DNA of 64,000 nt from Strigamia acuminata (Eukaryota). A program made the translations under genes and the position numbers. Numbering within the stretch: position 1 is the first letter of the stretch; each line of letters opens with the position of its first letter. Below the pieces are notes generated by a model. That model did no database searches. It had not been told where the DNA came from and was given only the letters and a program-made list of their open reading frames with translations. The stretch is taken from positions 12,710,001 to 12,774,000 of the forward strand of contig OX442314.1 in assembly GCA_949358305.1 (NCBI GenBank). The letters run 5' to 3'. Shown here piece after piece: positions 2,548-64,000 of the stretch.

Positions 2548-2578
2548 ATCCGGGGGACGAAGGTTTATTCCATCCCCC
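2538..2578 (+). promoter_or_regulatory. -1 programmed ribosomal frameshift signal (gag-pol, element A)
   Basis: A AAA AAC heptamer at 2538-2544 in gag frame, 7-nt spacer, then stem GGGGGA (2552-2557) / TCCCCC (2573-2578). Pol is in the -1 frame, which is open from the heptamer onward. Confidence 0.85.
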
Positions 2579-2582
2579 AGAA

Positions 2583-17203: not shown

Positions 17204-17540
17204 CGCTGACGCCACCTTCTTACTATTCCCAATAATCTCCAGCAACTCCTCGTCGCTCACGAAATAAAACCTCGGAAACGACGACCGCTGGCGCTCCAAA
17301 TAATCACCGAGCGCCTTCTGAATCTTCCCCAACAAGTCCGCCAAGCGCTCCAACGAGCGCTGCACGGCCGGGATGTTGAGCACGTCCATCACCATCGGCG
17401 ACTTGTCCACTTCCTTCATCAGAGTCAAGAACTCCGAGCTGATGCTCTGAAAGCGCGTCGATCCAGACGTCAAACAGCGCGTTGATGCGTTTCAGCGTCT
17501 CCTCCCAGGTGAGCGCCTCCTTCTCGAAGTCCTTGTAGTC
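17204..17540 (-). pseudogene. DYNC1H1: Isolated fragment of cytoplasmic dynein heavy chain with an internal deletion
   Basis: [27 protein letters not shown] is joined out of frame at ~17458 to [15 protein letters not shown]...[46 protein letters not shown], a recognisable dynein-1 linker-region sequence. GC-rich island; no further exons seen nearby. Confidence 0.85.
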
Positions 17541-17718: not shown

Positions 17719-19008
17719 CTATGTCATGTATTCAAGATCAAGTTGAAGATGCAAATTTTGAACTTGAACATAATTTCTAATCTCATCACAAGCTGGTTTG
17801 TCCATACTATGGCAGTTAGAAATTAACAAATCATTTAGCAGATTCTTCATTGATACCAATTTAAAAACTGTTGCTGAACTTATTAAGTGACATTGATAAA
17901 TGCCCAAGATCGTGAGATTTTGCAATAAATTCATATCAATGAGCTTTGTGATCAAGTTATCGGAAAAAGATTGACATCTCAAAACGTGTAGACTATCTAA
18001 ATTAACGGAATTTCCAAGTAACATTTGCAAATCTTGTTCGGATATTGTGTTTTGTTGTTCACTCGGTCCTTCACAAATGTATAGTGTACGTAGATTTCTG
18101 AATGGAACCTGATTGGATACGGTTTTAAAATTGTAAGAACAAGTTGTTTTAACACAGATTGAACAACGGCTCAATTTTAAACTTTTTAACATTGGACAGA
18201 AAAAGCCGATTTGCTGAATATTGACTGGACCAATCTGATACAGTTCCAAGTTAGTTAGTCGTCCCATTGTTTTGGATAGTACTGATACAACTATTTCATT
18301 AAAGCAGTTTGTGAATGTAGGTAGCCAAAATTCAATCGTATATAAATTTGGAAATATTTGTGTGACCATGCTGAGATCGTCATCTGTCCACTCACGCAGA
18401 CTTATACTTTCGAGGGAATATGGGTTTAGCATTTTGTTGGATTTAAAATCTTGTTTTAGGAGTGGAAATAATTTGACATCACAATCTAATTTTCTTAGCA
18501 AATGCAGATTTTTTACAAGTTGTAAACATAAATTTGCCGTAACATTCGTTTCGCAAATGTTTAAATATTCAAGTTTCATATTGCTAGTAATCAGCTTGGC
18601 TAAAATCAAATCTGAGATCTCATCGTTTCTGTTCAAGTAAAGACGTTGTAGGTTGGGCAAATGTTTCACCAATCGTATTAAGCAGTCAGATGAAATTCCA
18701 AGGTATGCTAAATCTAGTTCTGCCAGGTTTTTACACACTTCGATAATTTTATCTACAACTTCGTGTATGTGCAGAGCGGAAAACCGGGCCAAATGACACA
18801 ATGATCGCGTGTCAGGACGAATAAATTCATCGGCATGCAAACGATGTTGAAATGCCGTTTTATCGTTCCGAACATAACGAACAACGCGTGGATATATCTT
18901 ATTAACCAATTGAGGTGGAAAGTTAATAAGGCGTATTTTGTCATAATGTGCGGCGATTGTGTTCAAACACAATTCTTCCAAACCCGATGCTGATTTTCTA
19001 CTTGGCAT
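17719..19008 (-). CDS. BC-box/LRR family paralogue 1 (429 aa), putative CRL2-type substrate receptor
   Basis: Intronless ORF; SGLEELCLNTI...FPPQLVNKIY, then ~9-10 LxxLxL repeats with Cys (FBXL/AMN1-like). Confidence 0.85.
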   Translation of the reverse strand: MPSRKSASGLEELCLNTIAAHYDKIRLINFPPQLVNKIYPRVVRYVRNDKTAFQHRLHADEFIRPDTRSLCHLARFSALHIHEVVDKIIEVCKNLAELDLAYLGISSDCLIRLVKHLPNLQRLYLNRNDEISDLILAKLITSNMKLEYLNICETNVTANLCLQLVKNLHLLRKLDCDVKLFPLLKQDFKSNKMLNPYSLESISLREWTDDDLSMVTQIFPNLYTIEFWLPTFTNCFNEIVVSVLSKTMGRLTNLELYQIGPVNIQQIGFFCPMLKSLKLSRCSICVKTTCSYNFKTVSNQVPFRNLRTLYICEGPSEQQNTISEQDLQMLLGNSVNLDSLHVLRCQSFSDNLITKLIDMNLLQNLTILGIYQCHLISSATVFKLVSMKNLLNDLLISNCHSMDKPACDEIRNYVQVQNLHLQLDLEYMT

Positions 19009-19522: not shown

Positions 19523-20980
19523 TTATGGATATGTATCGGAATGATGAAGCTCAAGATGCAAATTCTCACCTTGAATGTAATTTTCAATTGTAACCCAAGC
19601 TGCATCGTCGATACTTGGACAACTAGCAATGTACACTTCATTTAGTGAATTTTTCATTGCTAGCAATTTGAAAACTGATGCGGAACTAATCGAAAAACAC
19701 ATAATAATAGTAAGCTTTCTGAGATTTTGCAGTAAATTCAAGTTGATGAGCTCAATGATCAAGCTATCCGAAAAGGATTCACAACTTAAAAGAGACAGGC
19801 TTTGTAAATTAATAGAATTTAGCAATAACATGCGCAAATCTTGTTCGCCTATCAATGTAAGCTCCGTCAATGTAACTGGGTCGTACGGTACTTGATGAAT
19901 TTTCAGTTTACGTAGTCTTCGGAATGGCAGCCGATTGGACGCAGTTTTTGAATTATGCGATGTTTCAACGTTGATTGAACAATAGCTCAATTGTAAACTC
20001 TCCAACACTGGGCAGAAAATGTCAATTTGCTCAATATTGACTAGACCAATCCTGAACAGTTTTAAGCTGGTTAGTCTTCCCATTGTTTTGCATAGTAATG
20101 GTGCAACTTTATCATTAAAACAGTTCCAGTATTCAACTTTCCGTAGCGGATCAAAGACAATTTTACGTAAATTCGGAAACATTTGTGCGACGATGCTGGG
20201 ATCATCAATTGTCCATTCTCGCAGCGTTACATTTTCGAGAGAGTATGTGCGACACATTTAATTGCGATTAAAGTTTTGTTTTAGGAGTCTCGATAAGTCT
20301 CTCCACATGTCGCGATCAGAATCTAATTTCTTTAGAAGCGGTAGATTTTCTACAAGTTGTAAACATCCATTAACCGTAACATTCGTTTTGCAAATGTTTA
20401 AATATTCAAGTTTCAGGTTGCTCGTAACGATCTCGGCTAAAACCCAATCTGTGATTCCACTAGCTGCATTCAAAAACTAACATATTTTGTGTTTTACTTC
20501 AATTTTAAACCAAAAATGACATCATTTCCTGTTTAAACCCATGTTAAAACTTAAAATACACTTAAACTAAAATTGTTATTTCAATTTTTGAATGCAGCTA
20601 CTGTTTTCTTCGAAGTTAAGACGCCGAATGTTGGGCAAATGTTTCGCCAATGTGATTACACATTCCGATGGAACTTGCGTGCATGACAAAGCTAGGTCTA
20701 TCAGGTTCTTACAAACGCGGATTATTTTATCTACAACTTCGTGCGTGGACACGTAGGAAAACCAGTGCGTAAGATCTAAAGATCTTGTGCCAGGACGAAT
20801 AAAATCATCCGGATCCGGATGAAAACGATCACAAAAATCGGAATCAACAGAGTGTAGATATATATTATTAATCAGTGTGTCAGGAAAACGGATAAGTTGA
20901 TGGCGTATGTTGTCGTAATGTGTTTCGATTGTGTTCAAACACAATTCTTCCAAGCTGAACGCGGATTTTTTAAACGGCAT
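19523..20980 (-). pseudogene. BC-box/LRR paralogue 2, disrupted
   Basis: Three collinear ORF pieces. A 138-bp MITE sits at 20462-20599, and an in-frame TAA at 20258-20260 stands where paralogue 4 has GAA. A LINE separates the ATG from its promoter motif. Confidence 0.88.
20462..20599. mobile_element. 138-bp MITE with 3-bp TSD
   Basis: 15-bp TIR AGCTGCATTCAAAAA...TTTTTGAATGCAGCT with ACT on both sides. Removing it plus one TSD restores E-N-S-G-I-T-D in the host ORF. Confidence 0.85.
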
Positions 20981-20983
20981 GTC

Positions 20984-23774
20984 TCGACCCTAGATACAAG
21001 ATGATTACATTCAATAGCCGCATGACCACAAGGTCATGCAACAAATCGTTTTCCCTTGTTTATCTGAATGCCCGCTCGCTCCTCCCCAAAATCGATGATC
21101 TTGCAGGTTTAGCTAATATCCACTCCCCCGATTTAATAACCATCACTGAGACGTGGCTATCCTCAGACTGCCCGAATGACATCATTGACATTCCCGGCTA
21201 CTCCATCGTCCGCTCCGACCGCCCGTCCACCGGCGGTGGTGTGGCTGCTTACATAAAAAATAGTCATAGTCCTTCTTCCATTGTAACAGTGCAGTCCGAG
21301 GGCATCGAACTTCTCTCATGTACTTTGACTAACACCAACATCGCCCTCCAAATCATCGTCCTCTATCGCCCGAGCACAAAACCTATTTCTCATGCACTAG
21401 AGCTAATCTCCGACCTAATTGCCCCTAATACCTACATTATTTTAGCAGGAGATTTCAACTATAACTTCCTCCCTCAAAACCCGACTAACATAATAAACAA
21501 TTTCATGTCTAGTTTTGGCCTCCACCCGGTCATTCACGCACCAACCCGTATAACAGACACTACTTCGACTTTAATTGACCAAATATTTGTGACCAAGAGC
21601 ATAACCTTCTCCCCCTGCCATCTTACAGACCTTGATAGACTCGACCACAAAGTCGCCTCTATTTCCTTCTCGATACCCAAACCTACAGTTCCTCGCCCCC
21701 CCAGTCGCACCAACCACTACTCATTCAAGAACTGCAACTGGGATGAAGTCAACAAGGCCATTACTCTCATTGACTGGTCTCCCATGCTCGCCACGCTGGA
21801 CCCTAATGCTAAACTCATTATTTTCTACCATGAGATAACCAACATCCTTGCTAAATTCGCCCCTCCCAAGGCCAAGTCTCGTACCAAACCTAAGCAATGG
21901 TGGACCACCGAACTCACCACCCTGCAAAAGAGGAAAACGCACGCATATCGTTACCGCTCCACACATCCCCTGAATTATAAAATTGCTCGCCGCCACTTTA
22001 AAGCCATGGTCAAGCGCAACAAGCGTAGGGCCGTCATGGCACCGAGAAACTTTTGGCGCCTAATCAGCACCCGAACTGCTGCGGTCGAACTCCCCAATTC
22101 ACCGACCGCTCTAACTGATTATGCCCACTTTTGTGACAACCCTCGTAATGTCACTACCAGCAATTACACTGAAACCGCCACACCCTCCCCACCCAATTTT
22201 CTTGATTTCAATTATGTTACCCCCGCCGACGTGTATCTGGCCGCCCTTAGGATAAATCTCTCGTCCAGGCACTCCCATGATCGCGTTCCGGGTATTGCCA
22301 TCAAGAAAATACTTCCTGCCATTGTACTCCCGCTTACAAATATACTCAACTCAATCATCGACACCTCCATATATCCCACTACCTGGAAGCATGCCGTTGT
22401 CACTCCAATCTATAAAGGCGGCGACAAAAATTCAATTAAGAACTTTAGGCCCATCTCGTCCCTCTCCCCACTGTGCAAGATTGCTGACAACACCATCCTT
22501 ATGCAAATTCGTCCAACCCTCTCGCGCCACTCCCCTTCTACCCAATACGGTACCCGTCCCGGATCAAGCGCCCAGCTGCTAATCGCTTCGCTGTACCTTG
22601 ATATCATCCACTGCTGTGACGAGTCTAAAGCCCTTCACCTTGCTAAAACAGATGTGTTAAAGGCATTTGACACCCCTCCCCAACACTACGTCCTCGATTG
22701 CCTCCGAAACCACGGCATTGGCCCTAGACCTATTAAACTCTTCGCCTCCTACTTCTCGGACAGAACCTTCCACATAGCTAATGACTTATCCCAGACCGAC
22801 TACCCCATCACTCGTGGAGTAGTCCAAGGCACCACCACTGGTCCCCTACTGTATAACTCAGCAGCGGCACCCGTCCTGTCACTCCCCCTTCAGTCACGTA
22901 TCCGGTCCTACGTAGACGACAACTTCCTGACCCAGGTTGCCGCGGCAAATCAAGAGCTCACTGCCCTGCCCCGTTTTGCACCAGACTTGACCCTCCTTGC
23001 CGACTGGTACTCAAAACACGACATGGGTCTCAATCAGGAAAAAACATCAACCCTGAGCTTCAAGCGACCCTCGAGAGGCGTCGTACCTTACCCCACCGAA
23101 CAGATTACAGTCCTGGGACTCATCCTCGACCCACATCTCACCTTTGGCCCTCATATCCGCCATTTAACTTTATTCCTTACCCGGTCAGCCTACATTGTAA
23201 AACACCTGCGCCGTGTCCTGTCCCGTACAGAAATGATCAGTTATATTAAGTCCAAGATTTACCCCGTCATCACCTATGCCTCGTCGATTTGGAACTCGAC
23301 GGCCCGCCGGTTCAAGTTCCCTCTTGCTAAGGCGTACAATGCGGTCATTCGCAACGCTTTCAACCGTTACGGTCATAACCGCATCACTCCGGTGTGCAAT
23401 GAGTTCGGTATCCTGACTTTGGACAACCTCCTCCTGCTTCATGATCTCTCCGCCATAGCAGACGTCCTCCGAAATGCTGATCATCCTGCTGATGCCATTA
23501 CGGAATTCTACCACTCTGACGTGAATACCCGGACGTCTCGGCGCCATAAGTTCGAGATCACGGTAGAGCGAACGACCTACCTACGCAAGACATTCCCACA
23601 TAGATGCACGACACTCTGGAATGATCTTCCCATCGACCTCCGCACTACGGTCTTTGACTGTGCTGCCTCAAAGTGTCGTTTCCACTGCTGCCACCTTCAT
23701 AAGCGCATAAGCAAACACCTATTAGACCAACAAGCTCTTTCATAAACCTGTATCCTACTCCACTGGAGTGTCTC

Positions 23775-24022: not shown

Positions 24023-26218
24023 TGTTGGGATGTCCTATGATGTCATTATTAATAAGCGCCACCTAGCGCCTTGTGTATAAATACGTAATAAACTTTAAGG
24101 GAAACACTTCCGATTTTACCACGTTAACGTTAACACCTTGTCCGTTATTTTTCTACAACCTCAATCACGTTACATCCAACAGGTTATGGGCCTAGGAACG
24201 CTGTAACTGCACAGGGAAGTAGCTGCAACATTGTATTTGGCATTAATCGTGCCAGAATCTAACTTTTTTGGAAAAATTGTGTTTTTGAGAGACGAGGACG
24301 ACGGTGCAGTAGCAGATGAACCCGAGCAACAGCAATTGCGACGCAACCCACCACGCAACTGCGGACCTCCGAAGCGTTTGGCGGACCACTACGCTCTCTA
24401 CACGACAATGGAACAGTGTGGGGACGATCCCAATTCGTACAGTGAGGCCATGCAACGCCCTGATGCAGACGAATGGAAACAGGCCGTTTTGCAGGAACTG
24501 GACGCACTCGAAAAGTGTAAAACTTGGGAACTCGCTGATTTGCCACCTGGGCGCAAGCCCATTACTTGTCGCTGGGTTTTCTGCATTAAACGAACAGCAG
24601 ATGGGAACCTTGAGCGATACAAAGCGCGTTTGGTAGCGCGTGGATGCTCACAAGTAGGCGGAATTGACTACGACGAGACGTTTTCGCCGGTGGTCAAGTA
24701 CACGACTTTACGGCTCCTTTTGGCGATGGCTGCTGCTAATGGATGGGAAATCTACCAGATGGACGCTGTGACTGCCTTTTTGCACGGTGAATTGAAGGAG
24801 GAAATTTATATGACGCTGCCTGAAGGACTTGAAAAATTACTTGGCAAGGCGAAATATTGTCGATTAAAAAAGGCGTTGTATGGACTTAGACAGGCCGGGC
24901 GGGCATGGTATGAGCTCCTTGACAAGGGCTTAATTGAAATTGGCTTGACACGCTCGGATTTTGACAATTGTGTTTATTTTTTACAAGATAAATGTGGAAT
25001 TATAATTGTTGCTGTTTATGTCAATGACTTTCTTATTTTCTCTAGCAGTTCGGAATTGAAACGGAGGACAAAAGGACAACTTTCATCAAAGTTTGAGATG
25101 AAAGATTTTGGCGAAGCTCATTACTGTCTTGGCATAAGATTTACCAGAGACCGGAAGCTTGGGACAATCAGTTTGGACCAGTCGGAATACATCAAGCGGC
25201 TGCTGAAACGATTTGATATGCCGGATTGCAAGCCGACCCCAACACCAACGGACCCAAGCCTGAAGCTCACCAACTTAATGGCGCCGAAGACTGCTACAGA
25301 AAGGGCGGAGATCAGCAAAGTACCTTATCAAGAGGCAGTCGGAAGTTTACTTTATGCAGCACAAGCAACAAGACCGGACATTGCACAAGCTGTGGGAGTG
25401 GTCAGTAAATTCAATTCTAATTTTGGACCTCTCCATTGGATTGCAGTGAAGCGGATCATGCGATATTTGCAAGGAACAATCAACATGAAACTGGTGTACG
25501 GAACTTCGAAAAGTTCAACGGTTGTTGGTTATGCAGACGCCGATCACGCTGGATGTCTTGATACGAGGAGGTCGACTACTGGATACCTTTTCATGGCAGC
25601 TGGTGGGGCAATCAGCTGGTCCAGTAAGAAACAACCAACTGTTGCTGAGTCAACTACAGAAGCAGAATACATGTCTGTATCGATGGCGTCTAAAGAAGCT
25701 ATTTGGTTGCGACGAGCTATTCAAGAATTGAAACCCAACGAATGCAAAGTGCCAATTGTTGTTCATTCGGATAACCAGAGCGCACTCAGATTGTCAAAGA
25801 ATGCTGTGTACCACTCCAGAACCAAGCATATTGATATCAAGCATCATTTCATCCGGGAAGTCATAAAAAATGGACATATTATCGTCAAGTTTATTGGGAC
25901 TGAGGAGATGATCGCTGATATTCTAACCAAGGGACTAACAAAAGAAAAACATCAATGGTGTACAAGGATAATGGGATTGTTAAATTAATTTTGTTTTTGT
26001 ATACCATATTTGAAACTGTTTGTTGTTGTATTTTGCATTATGTCATCAAAGTGTGGGAGTGTTGGGATGTCCTATGATGTCATTATTAATAAGCGCCACC
26101 TAGCGCCTTGTGTATAAATACGTAATAAACTTTAAGGGAAACACTTCCGGTTTTACCACGTTAACGTTAACACCTTGTCCGTTATTTCTCTACAACCTCA
26201 ATCACGTTACATCCAACA
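24023..26218 (+). mobile_element. Internally deleted Ty1/copia element with both LTRs
   Basis: 159-bp LTRs at 24023-24181 and 26060-26218 (TGTTGG...CCAACA; 2 differences seen), 5-bp TSD ATGTA, copia-type PBS GGTTATGGGCC at 24182. gag, protease and integrase are missing. Confidence 0.93.
24231..25988 (+). pseudogene. Copia RT-RNase H remnant, open frame but YVDD changed to YVND
   Basis: RYKARLVARG, QMDAVTAFLHG, LYGLRQ, AVYVNDF, GYADADHA, RTKHIDIKHHF, ADILTK. Confidence 0.88.
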
Positions 26219-26969: not shown

Positions 26970-28271
26970 CTATGTTATGTATTCAAGATCAAGTTCAAGA
27001 TCCAAATGTGAAACTTGAGCATAATTTGTAATCACATCACAAGCTGGTTTGTCCATACATTGGCAATTAGAAATTAATAAATCATTTAGAAGATTCTTCA
27101 TTGATACATATTTTAAAACTGTTGCTGAACTTATCGAGTGACAATGAAAAATCCTCAACTTCATGAGATTTTGCAGTAAATTCATTTCAGTGAGCTTTGT
27201 GAAGAAGTTATCGGAAAAAGATTGACAACCCCAAACGTCTAGTGTCTCTAAATTAACGGAATTTACAAATAACATCTGCAAATGTTGTTCGGATAGTGTA
27301 TTTCGTTGTTCATCAGGTGCTTCAAAAATATTTAGTATACGTAGATTTCTGAATGGAACCTGATTGGATACGATTTTTAAATTGTAAGAATTAGTTGTTT
27401 TAACACACATTGAACAATCGACCAAATATAAACTTTTTAACATTGGACAGAAAAATCCGATTTGCTGAATACTGACTGAACCAATCCTAAACAGTTCTAA
27501 GCTAGTTAGTCTCCCCATTGTTTTGGATAGTATTGATGCAACAATAGCATTAAAGCAGTTTGTGAATGTAAGTGGCCAAAATCCAATCTTACATAAATTT
27601 GGAAACATTTGGGTAACAATGCTGAGATCGTCATCTGTGCATTCACTCAGACTTAAACGTTCGAGGGAATATGGGTTTATCGTTTTGTTGGATTTAAAAT
27701 CTTGTTTTAGGAGTGGAAATAATGCGAAATCACAATCTAATTGTTTTAGAAAAGGCAGACCTTTTGCGAGTTCAAAACATCCATTAGCTGTAACTTCGGT
27801 ATATCGAACGTCTAAGTATTCAATTTTAGCGTTTTTCATACCCAGAATCATCTTGGCTAAAATCAAATCTGAGATCGCATCGTTTCCGTACAAGTGAAGA
27901 CGTTTTAGGTTGGGCAAATGTTTCACCAATCGTATTAAGCAGTCAGATGAAATTTCAAGAAATGATAAATCTAGTTCTGCCAGGTTTTTACACACTTCGA
28001 TAATTTTATCTACAATTTCGTGTATGTGCAGAGCGGAAAACCGGGCCAAATGACACAATGATCGCGTGTCAGGACGAATAAATTCATCCGTATGCAAACG
28101 ATAGTGACACGCCGTTTTTTCATCGTACCGACTATTATAAGTAACGAGGCGTCGATATATCTTATTAACCAAAGCGGGTGGAAAATTAATAAGGCGTATC
28201 TTGTCGTAATATGCAACGATTGTTTCTAAACATGATTCTTCCAAACTCGACGCTGATTTTTTAAAAGGCAT
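26970..28271 (-). CDS. BC-box/LRR family paralogue 3 (433 aa), closest to paralogue 1
   Basis: Intronless ORF; SSLEESCLETI...FPPALVNKIY + LRRs. Confidence 0.85.
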   Translation of the reverse strand: MPFKKSASSLEESCLETIVAYYDKIRLINFPPALVNKIYRRLVTYNSRYDEKTACHYRLHTDEFIRPDTRSLCHLARFSALHIHEIVDKIIEVCKNLAELDLSFLEISSDCLIRLVKHLPNLKRLHLYGNDAISDLILAKMILGMKNAKIEYLDVRYTEVTANGCFELAKGLPFLKQLDCDFALFPLLKQDFKSNKTINPYSLERLSLSECTDDDLSIVTQMFPNLCKIGFWPLTFTNCFNAIVASILSKTMGRLTSLELFRIGSVSIQQIGFFCPMLKSLYLVDCSMCVKTTNSYNLKIVSNQVPFRNLRILNIFEAPDEQRNTLSEQHLQMLFVNSVNLETLDVWGCQSFSDNFFTKLTEMNLLQNLMKLRIFHCHSISSATVLKYVSMKNLLNDLLISNCQCMDKPACDVITNYAQVSHLDLELDLEYIT

Positions 28272-29079: not shown

Positions 29080-29795
29080 CCTAAATCATGTGTTCAAGAA
29101 CAAGTTGAACACGCAAATTAACTTGCGCATAATTTGTAATCACATCACAAGCTGGTTTGTCCATACTTTGGCAACATTTATCATGTTCTAATATTTTCTG
29201 GACAAACGGTTTGACCCGTTTATTTGAATTTTTGGCCACAAACTATCAATACATTAAGAAATAAAGTGTATATTCTGAATTGTCTATATTGTCTCTTTTT
29301 TAAGAGTAAAACATGTCCAAACCCAAAGTTAAATAAATCGCGGTTTGTCCATACTTTGGCCATACTTTGGCAGTTAGAAATTAACAAATCATTAAGAGGA
29401 TTCTTCATTGATACCAATTTTAAAACTGTTGCTGAACCTATCGAGTGACAATGACTAATGCTCAACATTTTAAGATTTTGCAGTAAATTCATTTCGACGA
29501 GCTTTGTCATCAAGTTATCGAAAAAAGATTGACAACCCAAAACGTGAGGTTCTCTAAATTAACGGAATTTACAAGTTAACATTTGCAAATGTTGTTCGGA
29601 TATTGTGTTTTGTTGTTCACCCGGTTCTTCAAAAATGAATAGTGTATGCATATTTCTGAATGGAACCTGATTGGATACTGTTTTTAAATTGTACCGTAAT
29701 AATAAGTTGTTTTAACACAGATTGGAAAATCGCTCAATAATAACAGTTGGACAGAAAAAGCCGGTCCAAACAACGCAATGATCTCGTGTCAGGAC
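29080..29795 (-). pseudogene. Degraded, internally deleted BC-box/LRR paralogue
   Basis: GCQSFFDNLMTKLVEMNLLQNL...DLLISNCQSM with frameshifts, an insertion and a large deletion. Its 3' flank (~28830-29080) duplicates that of paralogue 3 (~26730-26970). Confidence 0.8.
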
Positions 29796-30136: not shown

Positions 30137-31441
30137 ATGCCTCACAAGAAATCAGTCTTAAGTTTAGAAAAAGCGTGCTTGAAAACAATCTCTGCACATT
30201 ACAACGAAATAAGCCACGATATTATTAATTTTCCAGTCGTATTGATTAATAATATCTATCAACACATTGTAGATGAAAGCGATAATCATTACCATTGTTT
30301 ACATTCGGATGACTTTATTCGTCCTGGCACGAGATCTTTACGCTGCTTGAACCGGTTTTGCGATCTATCGGCAGACGAACTTGTGGATAAAATAATCCAC
30401 GTTTGTAAAAATCTAGTAGAGCTAGACTTGTCACACGAGGAGGTAACATCGGAAAGCGTACTAACATTGGCGAAATATTTACGAAACATCCAACGTCTCG
30501 ACCTCGAAGGAAACACCGAGATCACAGATTCCATTTTAGCCCAGATGATTTCGAGGAGCGTAAAAGTGGAATATTTAAACATTTGTTTTACCGAAGCTTC
30601 AGTAAATGGGTGTTTACAACTCGTAAAAGATCTGCCTCGTCTCAAAGAATTAGATTGTGATCCCTGGAAGTGGCGGGACTTATTTACACTCCTAAAAGAA
30701 AACTTTACTCGCAACGAAATGCGCCGCTCGTATTCTCTCGAAAGTATTAGACTGCGTAATTGGGCAGAAAAGGATCTCAGCATTGTTACACAAATGTTTC
30801 CGAATTTGCGTAAGATTGTCTTGATCGCAACTTCACCGAGGAACTGTTTTAATGCTATAGTTGCATCGATACTAAGCAAAACAGAGGAACGACTAACTAG
30901 TATAACTCTGAGCAGGATTAGTGCAGTCAATATTCGGCAAATCAGCACGTTCTGTCCAATGTTAAACAGTTTAGAATTGAGCGTTTGTTCAATCTGTGTA
31001 GAAACAACTTATTCTGATAATAATAACCCCCTTCCATTCAGAAATCTACGTTCGCTGACAATTATGGAAAAACCGATTTTGCAACTAAACGTGATGGCCG
31101 AACAAGATTTGCGCGTGTTATTGGTAAATTCCGTCAATTTAACGAGCCTAAGTGTTTGGAATTGTCAAGCTTTTTCTAACACCTTGATTACAGAGCTCAT
31201 CAAATTGAATTTACTGCAAAATCTGACAGATTTAAGCATTCTCTTGTGTCACTCGATTAGTTCTTCAACAATTTTAAAATTACTAGCAATGAAAAATCCA
31301 TTAAATGATCTGGCAATCCATGAGTGCCAAAAAATCGACAAATCTGCTTGTGATATAATTGAAAATTATGTTCACAGTCAGAATTTGGATCTTGTTCTTC
31401 ATCTTGAAGAAGACGAGGACCTTGAAGAAGACGATAATTAA
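30137..31441 (+). CDS. BC-box/LRR family paralogue 4 (434 aa from the family-consensus MP start)
   Basis: MPHKKSVLSLEKACLKTI...FPVVLINNIY + LRRs + short acidic tail. The upstream in-frame ATG at 30101 abuts the promoter motif. Confidence 0.85.
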   Translation: MPHKKSVLSLEKACLKTISAHYNEISHDIINFPVVLINNIYQHIVDESDNHYHCLHSDDFIRPGTRSLRCLNRFCDLSADELVDKIIHVCKNLVELDLSHEEVTSESVLTLAKYLRNIQRLDLEGNTEITDSILAQMISRSVKVEYLNICFTEASVNGCLQLVKDLPRLKELDCDPWKWRDLFTLLKENFTRNEMRRSYSLESIRLRNWAEKDLSIVTQMFPNLRKIVLIATSPRNCFNAIVASILSKTEERLTSITLSRISAVNIRQISTFCPMLNSLELSVCSICVETTYSDNNNPLPFRNLRSLTIMEKPILQLNVMAEQDLRVLLVNSVNLTSLSVWNCQAFSNTLITELIKLNLLQNLTDLSILLCHSISSSTILKLLAMKNPLNDLAIHECQKIDKSACDIIENYVHSQNLDLVLHLEEDEDLEEDDN

Positions 31442-32642: not shown

Positions 32643-34178
32643 ATGCCTAACAGGAAATCAGCATCGAGTTTGGAAGAATCGTGTTTGAAAACCATCTTTG
32701 CCAATTACGACAAAATACGCCATGATCTTATTCATTTTCCTATTGGATTGGTTAATGCGATATATCAGCACTTTGTTGAATTTAGAGATAAATCCAAGAT
32801 GTTAGGTGAGTGTAGAAGGAAGAAGTTTCGTTTGCATTCGGATGATTTTATTCGTCCTGGCACTAGTTCGTTATGCTGTTTGGACAGATTTTACGATCTC
32901 TCTACCCACGAACTCGTAGATAAAATAATCCGCATTTGTACAAACCTGTCTGATCTAGACTTATCACTATCGGGTAATGCGATTCCACCCGAATTAGTAA
33001 TTACATTGGTACAACATTTACCAAACCTTCAACGTCTTGACTTGGTAGCAACCAGTGCGATCACAGATTTGATTTTACCCAAGATGATTTCGAAGAACGC
33101 GAAAATTGAACATTTAGACATTTGCATAACCCAAGTTACTTCAAATGGAGGTTTGTTTCTACTACAAAATCTACCTTTCCTAAAAAAATTAGATTGCGAG
33201 AAGAGAGTGTGGAATGACTTATTCAAACTACTCAAACAAGATTTTAACGAAATGCGGGACACTTATTCTCTCGAAAACCTGACACTGTGCGAATGGACAG
33301 ACGACGATCTCAGCATTGTCACAAAAATGTTTCCGAATTTACGTACGATTGAATTTGCGCCAAACGTCCCCAGGAATTGTTTTAATGCTATAGTTGAATC
33401 GATACTGTGCAAAACAATGGGAAAACTTACTAGCTTAACGCTGTGCAAGATCGGTCCAGTCGATATTAAGCAAATCGGCATTTTCTGCCCTGTGTTGGAA
33501 AGTTTAAGTTTGAATATTTGTTCAATTAACGATGACATATCTAATTGTAATGATTTAAAAAACGTGAACGATCAGCCGCTATTCAGGCATCTACGTAAAC
33601 TGGACATTGATGAAGCACTAAACGGACCACTGAACGAACCACTAACCGAACAACAGCTGCAAATGTTATTGGTCAATCCCATTAATTTACAAAACCTATT
33701 CGTGTTTCGTTGTCAATCTTTTTCCGACAGCTTGATCACAGAGCTCATCGAATTAAATTTATTGCAAAATCTAAAAGCGTTATGGATTAGCGAGTGTCAC
33801 GGGATTAGTTTAGAAACAGTTTTAAAATTTCTAGAAATGAAAAGTATACTGAATGAGTTGAGCATTACCGATTGCGAAAATATCGACAAACCAGCTTGTG
33901 ATATTATTAAAAATTATGTTCAAAGTGAGAACTTGGATCTTGATCTTGTTCTTGATCAAGATTCTGATGTCGATTTAGATCAATTTCCTGATATCGATTC
34001 AGATCAAGATCTTGACGTCGATTCAGATCAATTTCCTGATATCGATTCAGATCAAGATCCTGACGTCGATTCAGATCAAGATCCTGATGTCGATTCAGAT
34101 CAAAATTCTGATGTCGATTCAGATCAAGATCCTGATGTCGATCAAGATCAAATTTCTTACATTGAAGTTAATTTATAA
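32643..34178 (+). CDS. BC-box/LRR family paralogue 5 (511 aa) with expanded acidic repeat tail
   Basis: SSLEESCLKTI...FPIGLVNAIY + LRRs; C-terminal 8-aa repeats of the DQDPDVDS type. Confidence 0.85.
   Translation: MPNRKSASSLEESCLKTIFANYDKIRHDLIHFPIGLVNAIYQHFVEFRDKSKMLGECRRKKFRLHSDDFIRPGTSSLCCLDRFYDLSTHELVDKIIRICTNLSDLDLSLSGNAIPPELVITLVQHLPNLQRLDLVATSAITDLILPKMISKNAKIEHLDICITQVTSNGGLFLLQNLPFLKKLDCEKRVWNDLFKLLKQDFNEMRDTYSLENLTLCEWTDDDLSIVTKMFPNLRTIEFAPNVPRNCFNAIVESILCKTMGKLTSLTLCKIGPVDIKQIGIFCPVLESLSLNICSINDDISNCNDLKNVNDQPLFRHLRKLDIDEALNGPLNEPLTEQQLQMLLVNPINLQNLFVFRCQSFSDSLITELIELNLLQNLKALWISECHGISLETVLKFLEMKSILNELSITDCENIDKPACDIIKNYVQSENLDLDLVLDQDSDVDLDQFPDIDSDQDLDVDSDQFPDIDSDQDPDVDSDQDPDVDSDQNSDVDSDQDPDVDQDQISYIEVNL
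33953..34152 (+). repeat. In-frame 24-bp minisatellite (~8 units) encoding D-Q-D-P-D-V-D-S variants
   Basis: Tandem GATCAAGATCCTGATGTCGATTCA-like units. Confidence 0.9.
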
Positions 34179-34763: not shown

Positions 34764-36089
34764 ATGCCTCATAAGAAATCAGCTTCAAGTTTAGAAGAAT
34801 CGTGTTTGAAAACAATTACTGCACGTTACGAAGAGATTCGCCCCGGTCTTATTTCTTTTCCTAATACATTAATTAATACGATATATCAAAAGTTTATTGA
34901 TGATGAAGATAGGTATCCCGAGTTACATCATCGTTTGCATTCGGATGATTTTATTCGTCCTGGTACGAGATCGTTACGCGCATTGTATATGTTTCGCGAT
35001 CTGCCTGTTCGGAGACTTGTGGATAAAATAGTCCAAGTGTGTAAAAACCTGACAGATCTAGACTTTTCATTTGAAAAGATTGAACCCGAATTTATAATTA
35101 CATTGGTACAACATTTACCAAGCATTCAACGTCTTAACTTGAGTGGAAATATTGCGATCACAGATTTGATTTTAGCCAAGGTAATTATGAGGAACGATAA
35201 AATTGAATATTTAAACATCCTCTCGACAGATGTTACAGCAAATGGATGTTTACAACTTGTAAAAAATTTACCCGTGCTAAAAACATTAATATGCGAAACC
35301 AGCATGTGGGGTGAATTATTTCAACTGCTAAAACTAGATTTTTATTTCAGCAAAATGTTAAACACATATTCTCTCGAAAGTCTAATTCTGGAGGAGTGTA
35401 CGGAGGACGATCTTAGCATTGTCACACAAATGTTTCCAAAATTACGTAAGATTCGCATTACGCAACGAACATTCAGCAACTGTTTTGATGCTATAGTTGC
35501 ATCAGTACTATGCAAAACAATGGAACGATTGTCTAGTTTAACACTGTACGGCGTTAGGGGGATCAATGTACGGAAAATCGACATTTTCTGTCCATTGTTA
35601 GAAACTTTGCAATTAGGCGGTTGTTCAATCATCGATGAATTTGAACCTTCTAATTGTGATAATTTAAAAAACGTATACAATCAGCTTCCATTCAGAAATC
35701 TACGTACACTGTCTATTGGAATAACACCGATCTTTCAGCATCATTGGCAAATGTTATTGGTAAATTCCATTAATTTACAAAGTCTACAGGTTTTTAGTTG
35801 TCGATCTTTTTCCGATGGCTTGATCACTAAGTTCATCGAATTGAATTTACTGCAAAATCTGAAAATTTTACGCATTGCTTGGTGTCACTCGATTAGTCCT
35901 GCAACAGTTTTAAAATTGTTAGCAATGAAAAATCCAATGAAGGAATTGAGCATTACCGATTGCCAAAATATCGACAAACCAGCTTGTGATATTATTGAAA
36001 ATTATGTTCAAAGTCATAATTTGGATCTCGATCTCGATATTGGTGTTGTTCCTTTAGAAGGCGAAACCCTTGAAGAAGACTTAGATTAA
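34764..36089 (+). CDS. BC-box/LRR family paralogue 6 (441 aa)
   Basis: SSLEESCLKTI...FPNTLINTIY + LRRs + acidic tail; AATAAA downstream at ~36143. Confidence 0.85.
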   Translation: MPHKKSASSLEESCLKTITARYEEIRPGLISFPNTLINTIYQKFIDDEDRYPELHHRLHSDDFIRPGTRSLRALYMFRDLPVRRLVDKIVQVCKNLTDLDFSFEKIEPEFIITLVQHLPSIQRLNLSGNIAITDLILAKVIMRNDKIEYLNILSTDVTANGCLQLVKNLPVLKTLICETSMWGELFQLLKLDFYFSKMLNTYSLESLILEECTEDDLSIVTQMFPKLRKIRITQRTFSNCFDAIVASVLCKTMERLSSLTLYGVRGINVRKIDIFCPLLETLQLGGCSIIDEFEPSNCDNLKNVYNQLPFRNLRTLSIGITPIFQHHWQMLLVNSINLQSLQVFSCRSFSDGLITKFIELNLLQNLKILRIAWCHSISPATVLKLLAMKNPMKELSITDCQNIDKPACDIIENYVQSHNLDLDLDIGVVPLEGETLEEDLD

Positions 36090-37009: not shown

Positions 37010-38005
37010 TGTGGTGACCCGACTGGGGTGGGGCACGAAGAGTTTCTCTCGTGGCCTACATACGGGTAAAGAAGGGGAGTCGCACGCGCGCCTCCCTTCC
37101 CTCAGAGCATTGACATCCAGTCAATGGACGGGCGTCTGCCCTGGGGGAGTGGGGGAGATTCGTCTTCTCCACTATTGGGTGGCTTTAGTCACCTGTCACC
37201 CCCCGCTTTGTGCAAAGGAATTCGCCTTGCACTGAGCGGGCAGAACCAACACAAAAATCAACCAAGATACACGTAAAAGCCAAACGTCCTAAAACGATCA
37301 AGCCTAAGTACAAAGACTTCAGGAGTGACCTAGGACAAGGGACTTTCAACGTGAGTACGATTGATTTGTGTTAACCTCCGCAGAGTAACCTGCGAAACAA
37401 GATTACCACACTATTTTAGCAAGCCAGCTAGAAATAGTAAACCTACTCCAATTTAGCGAGTTGTGCAGACAAACGGTCGCACAAGCCTAAATTGCAGTAA
37501 CCACGACGAGCGTTCCCGCCGCTGTGTGTATCGCCGGGAACCACCAAGCGTCCGCCGCTGTGTGATCGCCGGACACCTACAAAAAACCCTAAACCTAGAC
37601 AACAGACCAGAAGTAAGACCTTTCAGGCATTCACTCGCGCCCGACCAGCGTGAGCCCGAAGGACCGAACGAGAAACGTGAGACGAGGACGCCATTCATTG
37701 CCACGCCGGCCCAAGACGACACCACGTTGCCACGCGGACGCCATCTTGGATCCACAGCGACAAAGGACGACCTCGACCAGTTTCTCGCCAACTTCACACC
37801 CCTTTCCTTTTACCTTTTTATTCCCTTACATATTTTATTCCCTTTTAACTGTATATTCCCGTATAATAAATACATTTATTATATTTACCTTTTACATTGT
37901 CTTGCCGTGTTACATTATTTGGGTAACCGCTTGAGTAAAGCGGTATTGCGAGATCAGAGAGTGACTCATACCACGTATCAGCGACAGACCGAGTTGAGCG
38001 CGACA
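37010..38005 (+). repeat. 5' LTR of element B
   Basis: TGTGGTG...CGCGACA; direct repeat of 49530-50525. Confidence 0.95.
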
Positions 38006-38007
38006 CG

Positions 38008-38025
38008 TGGGGGCCTGTCCGGGAT
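38008..38025 (+). promoter_or_regulatory. Primer-binding site, tRNA-Pro-like
   Basis: TGGGGGCCTGTCCGGGAT, 2 nt after the LTR; 16/18 match to the canonical tRNA-Pro PBS TGGGGGCTCGTCCGGGAT. Confidence 0.85.
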
Positions 38026-38073
38026 CGATTTAAACGACTCGAATAGAACTTGAGATCATTTTCATACCCAAAA

Positions 38074-41154: not shown

Positions 41155-41172
41155 CTTCTCGACCGTCTGCGC
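41109..41172 (+). promoter_or_regulatory. -1 frameshift signal of element B with two tandem slippery heptamers
   Basis: A AAA AAC at 41109-41115 and 41121-41127, both in gag frame; hairpin GCGCAGGCGG (41134-41143) / CCGTCTGCGC (41163-41172); -1 frame open into pol. Confidence 0.85.
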
Positions 41173-41177
41173 CATTC

Positions 41178-49490: not shown

Positions 49491-49529
49491 TCGCTCCGAA
49501 CACCGGCGGTCAGAGCTGGGAGGGGGACG

Positions 49530-50525: not shown

Positions 50526-51022
50526 CATCTTCATCTAGATCATCTACATGCAGATCATCTTCATCTAGATCATCTTCGCTCAGATCAAGATTTAGATGAA
50601 AAAAATCAAGATCAAAATCTTGATTCAGATCCATAGCTTGATTCAGATCAAGATCAAGATCCAACTTCTGACTTTGGACGTAACTCGTAATCACATCACA
50701 AGCTAGTTTGTCAATTTTTTTACAGTCGTAAATATGCAAATGATTCATTGGATTGTTCATTGCTAGCAATCTTAGAACTGTTGCAGAACTAATCCAATGA
50801 CAATTCTTCATGTTCGCCTTCTGGAGATTTTGAAGTAAATTCAATTTGATAAGCTCCGTGATCAAGTTGTCGGAAAAAGATTGACAACCCCAAACGAACA
50901 GGCTCTCTAAATTAACGGAATTTACAAATAACATTTGCAAAAGTTGTTCGCTTATTAAAACTAGTTGATCCATCGGTTGTTCACGAATTTTTAGTGTACG
51001 TAGCTTTCTGAATGGCTGATGA
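50526..51022 (-). pseudogene. 3' part of a BC-box/LRR paralogue; last codons lie at 36986-37009, beyond element B
   Basis: HQPFRKLRTLKIRE...LNLLQNL...acidic tail. Removing element B and one CATC gives ...DLDEDDLSEDE-stop. The 5' half is missing. Confidence 0.85.
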
Positions 51023-51906
51023 CTTTCAACTCCTAAAACAAGATTTTCATCGCAGCAAAATGCTAAACCCATATTCTCTCGAAAGTGTAAGTTTAGATGA
51101 GTGTACAGATGACGATTTCAGCGTAGTCCCACAAATGTTTCCGAATTTACGTAAGATTGATATTACGATAATTGAAATTGAAGACGAAAACCGTTTTGAT
51201 GTTATAGTTGCATCTATAATATGCAAAACGATGGAAAGACTGACTAGCTTAAAACTGTACAAGATCGCTACAGTCGATATTACGCAAATCGACCGTTTCT
51301 GCCCAATGTTGGAAAGTTTAACATTGTTTGCTTGTGCAATCAGTATTGGACCATCTAATTCTGATAATTCTGATAATGTAAGAGAAGTGACGTTCAGAAA
51401 TCTGCATTCACTTACGATCCACAAAGGACCGCATGAACAACTAAACGAAGGACTGGATGATTGGAATGAACTACTAATCGAAGGACCGGATGAACAACTA
51501 AACCAAGGACTGAATGAACAACTAAACCAAGGACTGAATGTACTACTAAACGTAGGACCAGATGAACAACTAAACACAATAACCGAACAACATTTTCGAA
51601 TGTTATTGTTAAAGTCAATTAATTTAAAAACACTATCGTTTTATAATTGTCAACGTTTTTCCGATAGTTTGATCACTGAGCTCATCGAATTGAATTTACT
51701 GCTAAATCTCAGAGAGTTTTGTATTACCAACTGTCACTCGATTAGTTCTGCAATAGTTTTAAAATTGCTAGCAATGAAAAAGTCCACTAAATAATTTGTA
51801 TATTCGTAAGTGCCAAAATATTGACCAACCTGCTTGTGATATAATTACTGATTATGTTCGAAGTGAGAATTTGGATCTTAATCTTGATCTTCGACGTCAC
51901 CATTAA
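51023..51906 (+). pseudogene. 5'-truncated BC-box/LRR paralogue with internal repeats and a late frameshift
   Basis: Begins at FQLLKQDF; internal GPDEQLNQ/GLNEQLNQ 24-bp repeats. One extra A in the run at ~51777-51781 shifts frame, and the family C-terminus continues to ~51906. The extra A could be a sequencing error. Confidence 0.82.
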
Positions 51907-52080: not shown

Positions 52081-52443
52081 CAGGGTGGTCAGAAACCTCC
52101 TCCTGCTTCATGATCTCTCCGCCATAGCAGACGTCCTCCGAAATGCTGATCATCCTGCTCATGCTATTACGGAATACTACCACTCTGACGTGAATACCCG
52201 GACGTCTCGGCGCCATAAGTTCGAGATCACGGTAAAGCGAACGACCTACCTACGCAAGACATTCCCTCATAGATGCACGACACTCTGGAATGATCTTCTC
52301 ATCGACCTCCGCACTACGATCTTTGACTGTGCTGCCTCAAAGTGTCGCTTCCACTGCTGCCACCTTCATAAGCATATAAGCAAACACCTATTAAACCAAC
52401 AAGCTCTTTCATAAACCTGTAACCTACTCCACTGGAGTGTCTC

Positions 52444-52475
<32 letters not shown>

Positions 52476-61251: not shown

Positions 61252-62574
61252 ATGCCTAATAAGAAATCGGCATCGAGTTTGAAAGAATTGTGTTTGCAAT
61301 CAATCTTTGCACATTACCACGAGATACGACATCATCTTATTCATTTTCCCATCGTATTGGTTAATAAGATATATCAACACTTTGTTGAATTTCAGGTTCA
61401 AAGATTCGGAATGTTTGCTATACTTCATAAAAGAAAACAGTTTCGTTTGCATTCGGATGATTTTATTCGCCCAGGCACGAGATTGTTACGCTGTTTGGAC
61501 CGGTTTTACGATCTGCCTACGAACAAACTAGTAGATAAAATAATCCTCGTTTGTAAAAACCTGGCTGATCTAGACTTATCAGGCTACCCGATTCCACCCG
61601 AATTTGTAATTACATTGGTACAACATTTACCCAGCATTCGACGTCTTAACTTGGAAAGAGTCAATGGCATCACGGACTTGATTTTAGCCAAGATGTATAC
61701 GAGAAACGTGCAAATTGAATATTTAAACATTCGCGCTACCAAAGTTACAGTAAATGGATGTTTACAACTCGTAAAAAATCTGCCACTTCTAAAAGAATTA
61801 AATGTTGATCACCAGATGTGGGGAGAATTATTTCAACTCCTAAAACAAGATTTTTATCGCAGCAAACATACATATTCTCTCGAAAGTGTAGGTTTAGATG
61901 AGTGGACAGTTGACGATCCCAGCGTAGTCCCACAAATGTTTCCAAATTTACGTAAAATTGATATTGCGATAATTCAACCCGGGAAGCATTTCGATGTTAT
62001 AGTTGCATCGATACTATGCAAAACAATGGGAAAAATAACTATGCTAAGATTGTACAATATTAGTCAAATCAATATTTGGCAAATTGGCTTTTACTGCCCA
62101 ATGTTGGAAAGTTTACAATTGAATAATTGTTCCATCAGCGCCGATACAACTAATTGTGACAATTTAGAACACGTCAACAATCATCAGCCATTCAGAAATC
62201 TACGTACACTACAAATTCTTGAACGACAGATGAATCAACCAGATGTACTAACCATAACCAAACATATTTTGCAAATGTTGTTGGTAAATTCCATCAATTT
62301 AAAGAGCCTACGTGTTAGTAGAATTCAACCTTTTTCGGATAGCTTCATTACAGAGCTCATCGAATTAAATTTACTGCAAAATCTCAGTGAGCTTTTCATT
62401 ACCGAGTGTCACTCGATTAGTTCTGAAACAGTTTTAAAATTGCTTGCTACGAAAAATCCCCTAAATGTTTTCTATATTATTCATTGCCGTAATATCGACA
62501 AACCAGCTTGTGACATAATTAGAAATTATGTTCAAAGTCAGAATTTGGATCTTGAGCTTACGATGGGTGTGTGA
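61252..62574 (+). CDS. BC-box/LRR family paralogue 7 (440 aa)
   Basis: SSLKELCLQSI...FPIVLVNKIY + LRRs; intronless. Confidence 0.85.
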   Translation: MPNKKSASSLKELCLQSIFAHYHEIRHHLIHFPIVLVNKIYQHFVEFQVQRFGMFAILHKRKQFRLHSDDFIRPGTRLLRCLDRFYDLPTNKLVDKIILVCKNLADLDLSGYPIPPEFVITLVQHLPSIRRLNLERVNGITDLILAKMYTRNVQIEYLNIRATKVTVNGCLQLVKNLPLLKELNVDHQMWGELFQLLKQDFYRSKHTYSLESVGLDEWTVDDPSVVPQMFPNLRKIDIAIIQPGKHFDVIVASILCKTMGKITMLRLYNISQINIWQIGFYCPMLESLQLNNCSISADTTNCDNLEHVNNHQPFRNLRTLQILERQMNQPDVLTITKHILQMLLVNSINLKSLRVSRIQPFSDSFITELIELNLLQNLSELFITECHSISSETVLKLLATKNPLNVFYIIHCRNIDKPACDIIRNYVQSQNLDLELTMGV

Positions 62575-63340: not shown

Positions 63341-64000
63341 ATGCCGTTTAAGAAATCCGCATCGAGTTTGGAAGAATTGTGTTTGAAATCAATCTTAGCA
63401 CATTACCACGAGATACGCCATGATCTTATTCATTTTCCTATCGTATTGGTTAACAATATACACCAACACTTTGTTGAAAGTACGGTAGAAAGAAGCGGAG
63501 CGTGGGATACATCTCATAAAGGAAAAAATTATCGTTTGCATTCGGATGATTTTATTCGTCCAGGCACAAGATCGTTAAGCTGTTTGTACTGGTTTTACGA
63601 TCTGCCTGCGCACAAACTTGTAGATAAAATAACCCGCGTTTGTAAAAACCTGTCAGATGTAGACTTATCAGGTAATGCGATTCCACCCAAATTTGTAATT
63701 ACATTAGTACAACATTTACCCAGCATTCGACGTCTTCACTTGGGTCCAACCACTGGGATCACAGATTTGATTTCAGCCAAGATGTTTACGAGAAACGTGA
63801 AAATTGAATATTTAAACATTTGCGCTACCGACGTTACAGTAAATGGATGTTTACAACTCGTAAAAAATCTGCCACTTCTAAAAAAAATAATTGTTGATCA
63901 CCAGATGTGGGGAAAATTATTTCGACTCCTAAAACAAGATTTTTATCGCAGCAAAAAGTTGAATACATATTCTCTCGAAAGTTTAAGTTTCGATGATTGG
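63341..64000 (+). CDS. BC-box/LRR family paralogue 8, partial (runs off the window end; absent from the ORF track)
   Basis: Manual translation from ATG 63341: MPFKKSASSLEELCLKSILAHYHEIRHDLIHFPIVLVNNIHQHF...RLHSDDFIRPGT...; appears open to 64000. Confidence 0.82.
   Translation, partial: MPFKKSASSLEELCLKSILAHYHEIRHDLIHFPIVLVNNIHQHFVESTVERSGAWDTSHKGKNYRLHSDDFIRPGTRSLSCLYWFYDLPAHKLVDKITRVCKNLSDVDLSGNAIPPKFVITLVQHLPSIRRLHLGPTTGITDLISAKMFTRNVKIEYLNICATDVTVNGCLQLVKNLPLLKKIIVDHQMWGKLFRLLKQDFYRSKKLNTYSLESLSFDDW

What the first reader, a model, noticed from the sequence alone, without database searches (positions are those of the whole stretch)
26970..28271. Hypervariability concentrated at the exposed LRR beta-strand positions
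Seen: close paralogues 1 and 3 are nearly identical in the helices but differ at the x positions around LxxLxLxx: LDLAYLG/LDLSFLE, LYLNRND/LHLYGND, LNICETN/LDVRYTE, LKLSRC/LYLVDC, LYICEG/LNIFEA, LHVLRC/LDVWGC, LGIYQC/LRIFHC. Across the family one repeat reads LYLNRN, LHLYGN, LDLEGN, LDLVAT, LNLSGN, LNLERV, LHLGPT. Known: this is the concave ligand-binding face, where plant NLRs and lamprey VLRs show positive selection. Inference: diversifying selection on substrate specificity.
Basis: partly seen in the sequence, partly recalled or inferred. Interest (0 to 1): 0.8.

Follow-up and report, generated by a model that had tools for sequence, protein, structure and literature searches.

The report
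Fast-evolving Elongin-C LRR adaptor family
A cluster of duplicated genes, likely from a centipede, encodes curved repeat proteins whose predicted inner binding face changes far faster than the rest; they are predicted to be target-picking parts of a protein-destroying ubiquitin ligase, possibly in an arms race with parasites.

Summary
The pattern is real, though 'nearly identical helices' is overstated. Paralogues 1 and 3 share 11 of 36 residues at strand positions x5/x7/x8, 88 of 113 in helices and 33 of 36 buried leucines. My own codon models on 7 copies support positive selection (M8a vs M8 2dlnL 81.8; M1a vs M2a 44.9 with doublet mutations allowed). Selected sites fall on 18 of 36 concave positions but 1 of 52 polar helix positions. 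Concave omega is 3.0 with gene-wide dS, but only 1.6 (1.0-2.7) if the class has its own rate. The proteins are neither NLRs nor VLRs. They carry an N-terminal BC box plus Cul2-box motif, and an N-terminal profile hits yeast Rad7 in its Elongin C complex (E 1.9e-6). So they are likely Elongin BC-Cul2 substrate receptors in a birth-and-death tandem array with gene conversion. The closest relatives are in the centipede Strigamia. In three distant relative pairs the concave face is instead the more conserved part. This works like nematode F-box and mammalian PRAME expansions: a new member of a known kind. Binding, expression and targets are untested.

The parts
26970..28271 (-). Paralogue 3 (g3): intact single-exon gene, 433 aa; BC box, Cul2-box motif, 12 LRRs and a C-terminal capping strand
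28218..28247 (-). BC-box motif, residues 9-18; predicted Elongin C binding helix
   Evidence: consensus in PMC4878042; match; helix 7-20; Rad7 profile hit
28158..28184 (-). Cul2-box motif, residues 30-38, 11 residues after the BC box
   Evidence: consensus and 8-23 residue spacing in PMC3355856; match
28098..28139 (-). Second hypervariable zone, residues 45-58: loop with indels, low pLDDT, alignment uncertain
   Evidence: 5 of 8 gap-free codons with posterior above 0.9
27066..27983 (-). LRR repeats R1-R12; x5, x7 and x8 of each LxxLxLxx are the hypervariable concave-face codons
27849..28088 (-). Likely gene-conversion tract shared with g1 (codons 62-141): 10 codons differ, all change the residue, 8 of them in the R1/R2 motifs
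   Evidence: tract chosen after seeing the data
17719..19008 (-). Paralogue 1 (g1): intact, 73% identical to g3; glycine at the first BC-box position
19523..20980 (-). Paralogue 2 (g2): pseudogene with a 140-bp inverted-repeat insert (about 20461-20600) and an in-frame stop
29087..29763 (-). Broken 3' fragment close to g1/g3 (83-85% DNA identity)
30137..31441 (+). Paralogue 4: intact, short acidic tail
32643..34178 (+). Paralogue 5: intact, long acidic tail of 24-bp tandem repeats (33954-34151)
34764..36089 (+). Paralogue 6: intact
50605..51030 (-). 3' fragment of a paralogue; its acidic tail is cut by the LTR element at 37010-50526
51024..51891 (+). Frameshifted 3' half of a paralogue with a 24-bp repeat expansion in the loop after R9
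61252..62574 (+). Paralogue 8: intact
63341..64000 (+). Paralogue 9: open frame cut by the window end, 76% identical to paralogue 8

Best explanation
This is one gene of a tandem family of BC-box/LRR proteins whose strand positions x5, x7 and x8 are hypervariable and test positive for diversifying selection; the proteins are predicted to be Elongin BC-Cullin 2 ubiquitin-ligase substrate receptors that likely pick targets with this concave face. Shown: the array, the motifs, the codon-level signal, and signs of gene conversion and pseudogene formation. Inferred: the N-terminal helix docks on Elongin C and the Cul2 box selects Cul2; the LRR horseshoe binds a substrate for ubiquitylation; duplication frees copies and selection fixes new residues on the binding face. 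The driver is likely a fast-changing foreign or selfish target (virus, intracellular parasite or transposon protein; my odds about 55%), otherwise a germline or conflict target as proposed for PRAME.
For: Selection: M1a/M2a 2dlnL 81.5 (omega 3.8, 16% of sites), M7/M8 108.2, M8a/M8 81.8 on 409 codons of 7 copies. With doublet hits 44.9; on 351 gap-distant columns 61.5 (32.8 with doublets); 25 null simulations with doublets gave at most 25.6. Segment-specific trees 76.5; without g1 and g3 37.5. Location: posterior above 0.9 at 18/36 concave positions, 16/373 others, 1/52 polar helix positions; strands confirmed in the AlphaFold2 model, pLDDT 82. No mutation hotspot: fourfold third positions differ in 27/78 concave, 529/1577 other and 54/220 interleaved leucine codons (pairs not independent). 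Not a generic LRR trait: in three distant relative pairs the concave face tends to be more conserved than polar helix positions (13/30 vs 10/47, 14/34 vs 11/53, 13/34 vs 11/53; p 0.05-0.09), while window pairs show the reverse (11/36 vs 47/54, 8/36 vs 37/53, 5/36 vs 26/54). Adaptor: BC box in 7 of 8 copies with an N-terminus, Cul2 box in 8 of 8, both in 20 of 20000 shuffles. The N-terminal profile's best PDB hit is Rad7 from the Rad7-Elc1 complex, E 1.9e-6, next hit 0.092. Top fold matches are FBXL2 (Z 23.9, rmsd 4.1, 346 aligned) and Rad7 (Z 22.2, rmsd 3.9, 332 aligned).
Against: With its own rate the concave class has omega 1.58 (1.02-2.65), LRT 3.4 against omega 1, and rate 1.85. Single-hit simulations did not reproduce that rate (0/120); doublet simulations did in 8%. 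Recombination is present (PHI-type test, 0 of 1000 permutations as low) and can inflate site tests. The scaffold is only weakly constrained (omega 0.48), and the array holds several dead copies. Among the 40 of 99 listed differences in public contigs laid on g3, only 4 fall in concave codons, no more than their share; that list is filtered at 90% identity and 23 of the 40 equal the g1 letter. Three of the eight distant pairs compared showed no clear contrast (P0050/P0071, P0007/P0027, P0002/P0003). Posteriors are naive empirical Bayes from 7 sequences. Exposure of helix positions was proxied by polarity, not by coordinates. The Rad7 hit needed a profile that includes 15 distant relatives; Pfam found no SOCS or VHL family in any of the 22 N-termini. 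No target is known.
Confidence: 0.7

Rival explanations
1. Relaxed constraint: exposed strand residues drift neutrally in redundant, partly dying copies, and doublet mutations plus gene conversion inflate the apparent omega.
For: Free-rate omega only 1.6 with lower bound near 1; doublet term improves fit and halves the LRT; recombination signal; scaffold omega 0.48 and several pseudogenes.
Against: LRT stays 33-45 with doublets and 76.5 with segment trees. Polar helix positions have omega 0.58. In g1/g3, concave dN 0.47 exceeds gene dS 0.17 and aligned upstream divergence 0.11. In codons 62-141 there are 10 amino-acid changes and 1 silent change.
Confidence: 0.12
2. Selection is real but the proteins are not Cul2 adaptors: they use another cullin (yeast Rad7 works with Elc1 and Cul3), or act as decoys or inhibitors that bind targets without ubiquitylating them.
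For: The best N-terminal hit is Rad7, whose complex uses Cul3 and Elc1 (10.1101/050807, passages). The motifs are short. g1 has a non-consensus first BC-box residue. Ribonuclease inhibitor and NLR LRRs also match the fold at Z 17-18.
Against: A Cul2-box motif at the published spacing is kept in 8 of 8 copies, and hydrophobic N-box helix positions are under purifying selection (omega 0.38).
Confidence: 0.15
3. A directed diversifier (targeted hypermutation, or VLR-like copying from the neighbouring fragments) writes variation into the strand codons.
For: Several gene fragments lie in the array; a conversion-like tract joins g1 and g3; the fitted rate at concave codons is raised.
Against: Silent third positions are not raised at concave codons and are lower at the interleaved leucine codons. 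Variation alternates codon by codon, which tracts cannot produce. The genes are complete in the assembly, not empty cassettes.
Confidence: 0.03

Closest known systems
PRAME family (mammalian VHL-box LRR proteins, CRL2)
   Same: N-terminal VHL box with LRRs, lineage-specific expansion and positive selection; 8 of 12 selected sites lie on the concave face in artiodactyls (PMC3037382, passages; PMC3355856, passages).
   Different: No PRAME hit appeared in my Pfam, PDB or Atlas searches. These genes are single-exon and arthropod. Primate and rodent PRAME sites map to the outer surface per PMC3037382. Expression here is unknown.
Yeast Rad7 (Elc1-binding LRR protein, PDB 5zb2)
   Same: N-terminal profile match (E 1.9e-6, chain residues 3-79) and whole-fold match (Z 22.2); box followed by LRRs.
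   Different: Rad7 acts in global-genome excision repair with Rad16, Elc1 and Cul3 (10.1101/050807). No orthology was tested, and nothing here points to DNA repair.
Expanded F-box families of Caenorhabditis and plants
   Same: Tandem duplication, purifying selection on the ligase-binding box, positive selection on the substrate domain, immune role proposed (PMC8120010, passages, citing Thomas 2006).
   Different: These use Skp1-Cul1 through an F-box. No F-box was found here, although UniProt labels the Strigamia relatives 'F-box domain-containing'.
Uncharacterised invertebrate BC-box/LRR family (Strigamia T1JEY3, T1J0A9, T1IR93, T1IX89, T1JAF0, T1IP17; relatives in octopus, limpet, oyster, crab, krill, acorn worm, amphioxus)
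   Same: Best profile hits E 7e-55 to 1e-22 (names). The six window genes form one clade (100) inside a 12-row group with five Strigamia proteins and one unnamed protein (97; quick tree). One Strigamia paralogue pair also has a variable concave face (1/27 vs 12/37).
   Different: The window clade is a separate, younger radiation. A crab/krill pair keeps the concave face relatively conserved.
Plant NLRs and lamprey VLRs
   Same: Variation on the concave LRR strands (recalled, no call).
   Different: No NB-ARC or NACHT domain, no signal-peptide-like N-terminus by inspection, helical RI/FBXL-type repeats, complete genes in the assembly.

Membership tests
VHL-box (CRL2) substrate receptor | BC box (S,T,P)LXXX(C,S,A)XXX-hydrophobic | tested here: met
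   7 of 8 copies with an N-terminus, g1 has G at position 1; consensus from PMC4878042
VHL-box (CRL2) substrate receptor | Cul2 box, hydrophobic-PXX-hydrophobic-XXX-hydrophobic, 8-23 residues after the BC box | tested here: met
   8 of 8 copies, 11-13 residues after the BC box; both motifs in 20 of 20000 shuffles
VHL-box (CRL2) substrate receptor | Homology of the box to a solved Elongin C binder | tested here: met
   22-sequence N-terminal profile hits Rad7 of the Rad7-Elc1 structure, E 1.9e-6; that this stretch is the Elc1-binding part is inferred
VHL-box (CRL2) substrate receptor | Physical binding to Elongin B/C and Cul2, and ubiquitylation of a substrate | not testable with these tools
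F-box/LRR (FBXL, SCF) | F-box motif before the LRRs | tested here: not met
   No F-box Pfam family in window copies (E 0.01), 18 relatives (E 0.5) or 22 N-termini (E 10)
F-box/LRR (FBXL, SCF) | FBXL-type LRR fold | tested here: met
   FBXL17 and FBXL2 top the sequence and fold searches
PRAME / ZYG11 / ZER1 / LRR1 | Family-level sequence homology | tested here: inconclusive
   Not listed among PDB or Pfam hits for window copies; one relative has a sub-threshold LRR_Zer-1 hit and one Atlas row is Zer-1-like at 0.92
NLR | NB-ARC or NACHT NTPase domain | tested here: not met
   Complete ORFs of about 430-510 aa with LRR hits only
Lamprey VLR | Secreted or surface LRR protein | tested here: not met
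   By inspection the N-terminus is basic and polar, followed by the box helix; no predictor was run
Lamprey VLR | Somatic assembly from cassettes | not testable with these tools
   Only contigs were available; the genes are complete in the assembly

The most novel reading that the evidence does not exclude
Myriapods have turned a conserved, uncharacterised Elongin C-LRR adaptor into a large germline-encoded intracellular immune repertoire: many copies, reshuffled by gene conversion and selected on the concave face, each marking a different virus, parasite or transposon protein for destruction through Cullin 2.
Probability: 0.3. Interest if true: 0.7.

Novelty: new member of a known kind. Interest (0 to 1): 0.42.

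Why it matters
Concave-face selection in duplicated LRR genes is a familiar pattern, so the signal alone is not surprising. The family is the useful part. It is widespread in invertebrates, labelled F-box in databases although it carries a BC box, and I found no paper on it in eight literature searches. In this lineage its binding face appears to have switched from conserved to hypervariable. If the copies target foreign proteins, this is an arthropod counterpart of the nematode F-box and mammalian PRAME expansions, and it names candidate intracellular restriction factors in a group whose immunity is poorly known.

Tried and rejected
Whole-genome copy count: no genome is held for this window. 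Word-based homologue search with g3: 0 of 3508 candidates passed; the profile search found relatives instead. Expression: no RNA holder listed, which says nothing either way. Public contigs: 256 and 181 contigs of two studies lie on g3 at 90% or more, most with differences; this suggests further close copies or alleles but gives no copy number, and the listed variants were too filtered for a polymorphism test. The first rate simulation did not converge and was redone. Atlas search of residues 1-75 gave only unnamed hits under 0.9. PRAME, ZYG11, ZER1 and LRR1 were not among the listed fold matches, which does not exclude them. Branch-specific relaxation in g3 was not supported (free-ratio LRT 6.7, 10 df). 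Complex prediction was not run for lack of an Elongin C sequence. Earlier scan findings: none by sequence or words. Literature searches listed no paper on this family; passages of PMC4833078 on arthropod immune genes did not mention it. Subscription papers and supplements were not seen. Thomas 2006, Birtle 2005 and Mahrour 2008 are cited only through the papers I read.

Full report
Setting. The window is eukaryotic and transposon-rich. Between the elements lies a tandem family of single-exon LRR genes: six intact copies (g1, g3, g4, g5, g6, g8), one cut by the window end (g9), one pseudogene with an inverted-repeat insert and a stop (g2), and several fragments. The finding is g3, 26970-28271 on the minus strand, 433 aa. 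Copies are 52-60% identical, except g1/g3 (73%) and g8/g9 (76%). The best profile hits are proteins of the centipede Strigamia maritima, so the source is likely a myriapod (inference).

Observation. The AlphaFold2 model (8-sequence alignment, pLDDT 82, pTM 0.78) puts a strand on each of the 12 LxxLxLxx motifs, with helices between. Paralogues 1 and 3 are identical at 11 of 36 x5/x7/x8 positions, 33 of 36 buried leucines, 47 of 54 polar helix positions and 88 of 113 helix positions (Fisher p 4e-7). The contrast is real, but the helices are not nearly identical.

Selection. PAML and HyPhy were not available, so I wrote Goldman-Yang codon models and fitted 409 gap-free codons of 7 copies. M0 omega is 0.68. 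M1a vs M2a gives 2dlnL 81.5 with 16% of sites at omega 3.8. M7 vs M8 gives 108.2 and M8a vs M8 81.8. The M1a/M2a test survives doublet mutations (44.9), F61 frequencies (81.1), 351 columns away from gaps (61.5; 32.8 with doublets), three other topologies on six copies (85-87), each half (21.3, 59.6), removal of g1 and g3 (37.5), and five segment-specific trees (76.5). Twenty-five null data sets simulated with doublets gave at most 25.6. Sites with M8 posterior above 0.9 are 18 of 36 concave positions, 16 of 373 others and 1 of 52 polar helix positions; with segment trees, 12 of 36, 6 of 373 and 0 of 52. With classes fixed from the motif and a shared synonymous rate, omega is 3.03 (2.52-3.54) for x5/x7/x8, 0.26 for buried leucines and 0.58 for polar helix positions.

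Results against. If the concave class has its own rate, omega falls to 1.58 (1.02-2.65) and the test against 1 is marginal (LRT 3.4). The raised rate is not reproduced by single-hit simulation (0 of 120) but is by doublet simulation in 8%. Fourfold third positions show no excess at these codons (27 of 78 against 529 of 1577), so I read the raised rate as multi-base codon change, not a hotspot. Recombination is present, the scaffold is loosely constrained (omega 0.48), and the 40 of 99 listed contig variants on g3 are not enriched on the concave face (4 of 40), though that list is biased. Posteriors are naive empirical Bayes.

Two further controls. First, in codons 62-141 g1 and g3 are almost identical in DNA, likely by gene conversion (run test p 0.0025). 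Ten codons differ, all change the residue, and eight lie in the R1/R2 motifs. The tract was chosen after seeing the data. Second, of eight pairs of distant relatives, three show the opposite trend, with the concave face more conserved than polar helix positions (13/30 vs 10/47 for a crab/krill pair; 14/34 vs 11/53; 13/34 vs 11/53; p 0.05-0.09). Two show the window's pattern (one Strigamia pair, one unnamed pair) and three are unclear. Concave variability is therefore not automatic for this fold.

What the protein is. Residues 9-18 match the BC-box consensus and residues 30-38 the Cul2-box consensus at the published spacing (PMC4878042 and PMC3355856, passages). They are present in 7 of 8 and 8 of 8 copies, and both occur in 20 of 20000 shuffles. 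A profile of 22 N-termini (7 window copies, 15 relatives) hits one solved structure clearly: yeast Rad7 from the Rad7-Elc1 complex, E 1.9e-6, next hit 0.092. Rad7 has LRRs and a SOCS-box and works with Elc1 and Cul3 (10.1101/050807, passages). Fold searches rank FBXL2, Rad7 and FBXL17 first. No F-box, NB-ARC or NACHT family was found. Of 83 top hits of 380-660 aa, 33 have a BC-like motif in the first 30 residues; named members come from octopus, limpet, oyster, crab, krill, acorn worm and amphioxus. In a quick tree of 42 rows the six window genes form one clade (100) within a group of five Strigamia proteins and one unnamed protein (97).

Mechanism. Shown: array, motifs, selection signal and its location, conversion and gene death. 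Inferred: the box recruits Elongin B/C and Cul2, the concave LRR face binds the substrate, and new copies gain new specificities under selection. The driver is unknown; a foreign or selfish target is most likely by analogy with nematode F-box genes (PMC8120010, passages), a germline role as for PRAME is the alternative (PMC3037382, passages). Binding and targets were not tested.

Novelty. The pattern is known from F-box and PRAME families, including concave-face selection in artiodactyl PRAME. The family itself appears undescribed: eight searches listed no paper on it, with subscription papers and supplements unseen. Verdict: a real, well-supported case of diversifying selection in a new arthropod family of likely CRL2 adaptors; new member of a known kind; interest 0.42.

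Noticed in passing
window 37010-50526: 13.5-kb Ty3/gypsy-type element with identical 997-bp LTRs, open gag and pol frames and an extra 1091-aa frame (46215-49490) without a Pfam hit; it sits in the acidic tail of an LRR paralogue fragment.
   Followed up: partly
window 271-9316: Another Ty3/gypsy-type gag-pol pair followed by a 520-aa frame (7754-9316) without a Pfam hit.
   Followed up: no
window 54675-61061: LTR element with identical 265-bp LTRs, 5-bp target duplication and one 1689-aa frame on the minus strand.
   Followed up: no
window 24023-26218: Short 2.2-kb copia-type element with 159-bp LTRs and a 5-bp target duplication that keeps only an RT-containing frame of 593 aa.
   Followed up: no
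window 20974-23745: LINE-type endonuclease-RT frame starting head to head with the start of pseudogene g2; its 3' end recurs at 52094-52476 (97%).
   Followed up: no
window 20461-20600: 140-bp insert with 16-bp terminal inverted repeats (MITE-like) breaking g2.
   Followed up: partly
window 33954-34151, and tails of g4, g6 and the 50605 fragment: Acidic C-terminal tails of variable length; in g5 built from 8 copies of a 24-bp repeat. g1, g3 and g8 lack them.
   Followed up: no
window 28098-28139: Loop between the Cul2 box and the LRRs is as variable as the concave face, also in the g8/g9 pair (5 of 12 identical), but the alignment there is uncertain.
   Followed up: partly
window about 17100-17400, minus strand: A short frame downstream of g1 reads like part of a dynein heavy chain (resemblance recalled, not tested).
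   Followed up: no
UniProt T1JEY3, T1J0A9, T1IR93, T1J9N4, T1IP17: Strigamia relatives are named 'F-box domain-containing', but Pfam found no F-box in the four scanned and several have a BC-box-like start.
   Followed up: partly
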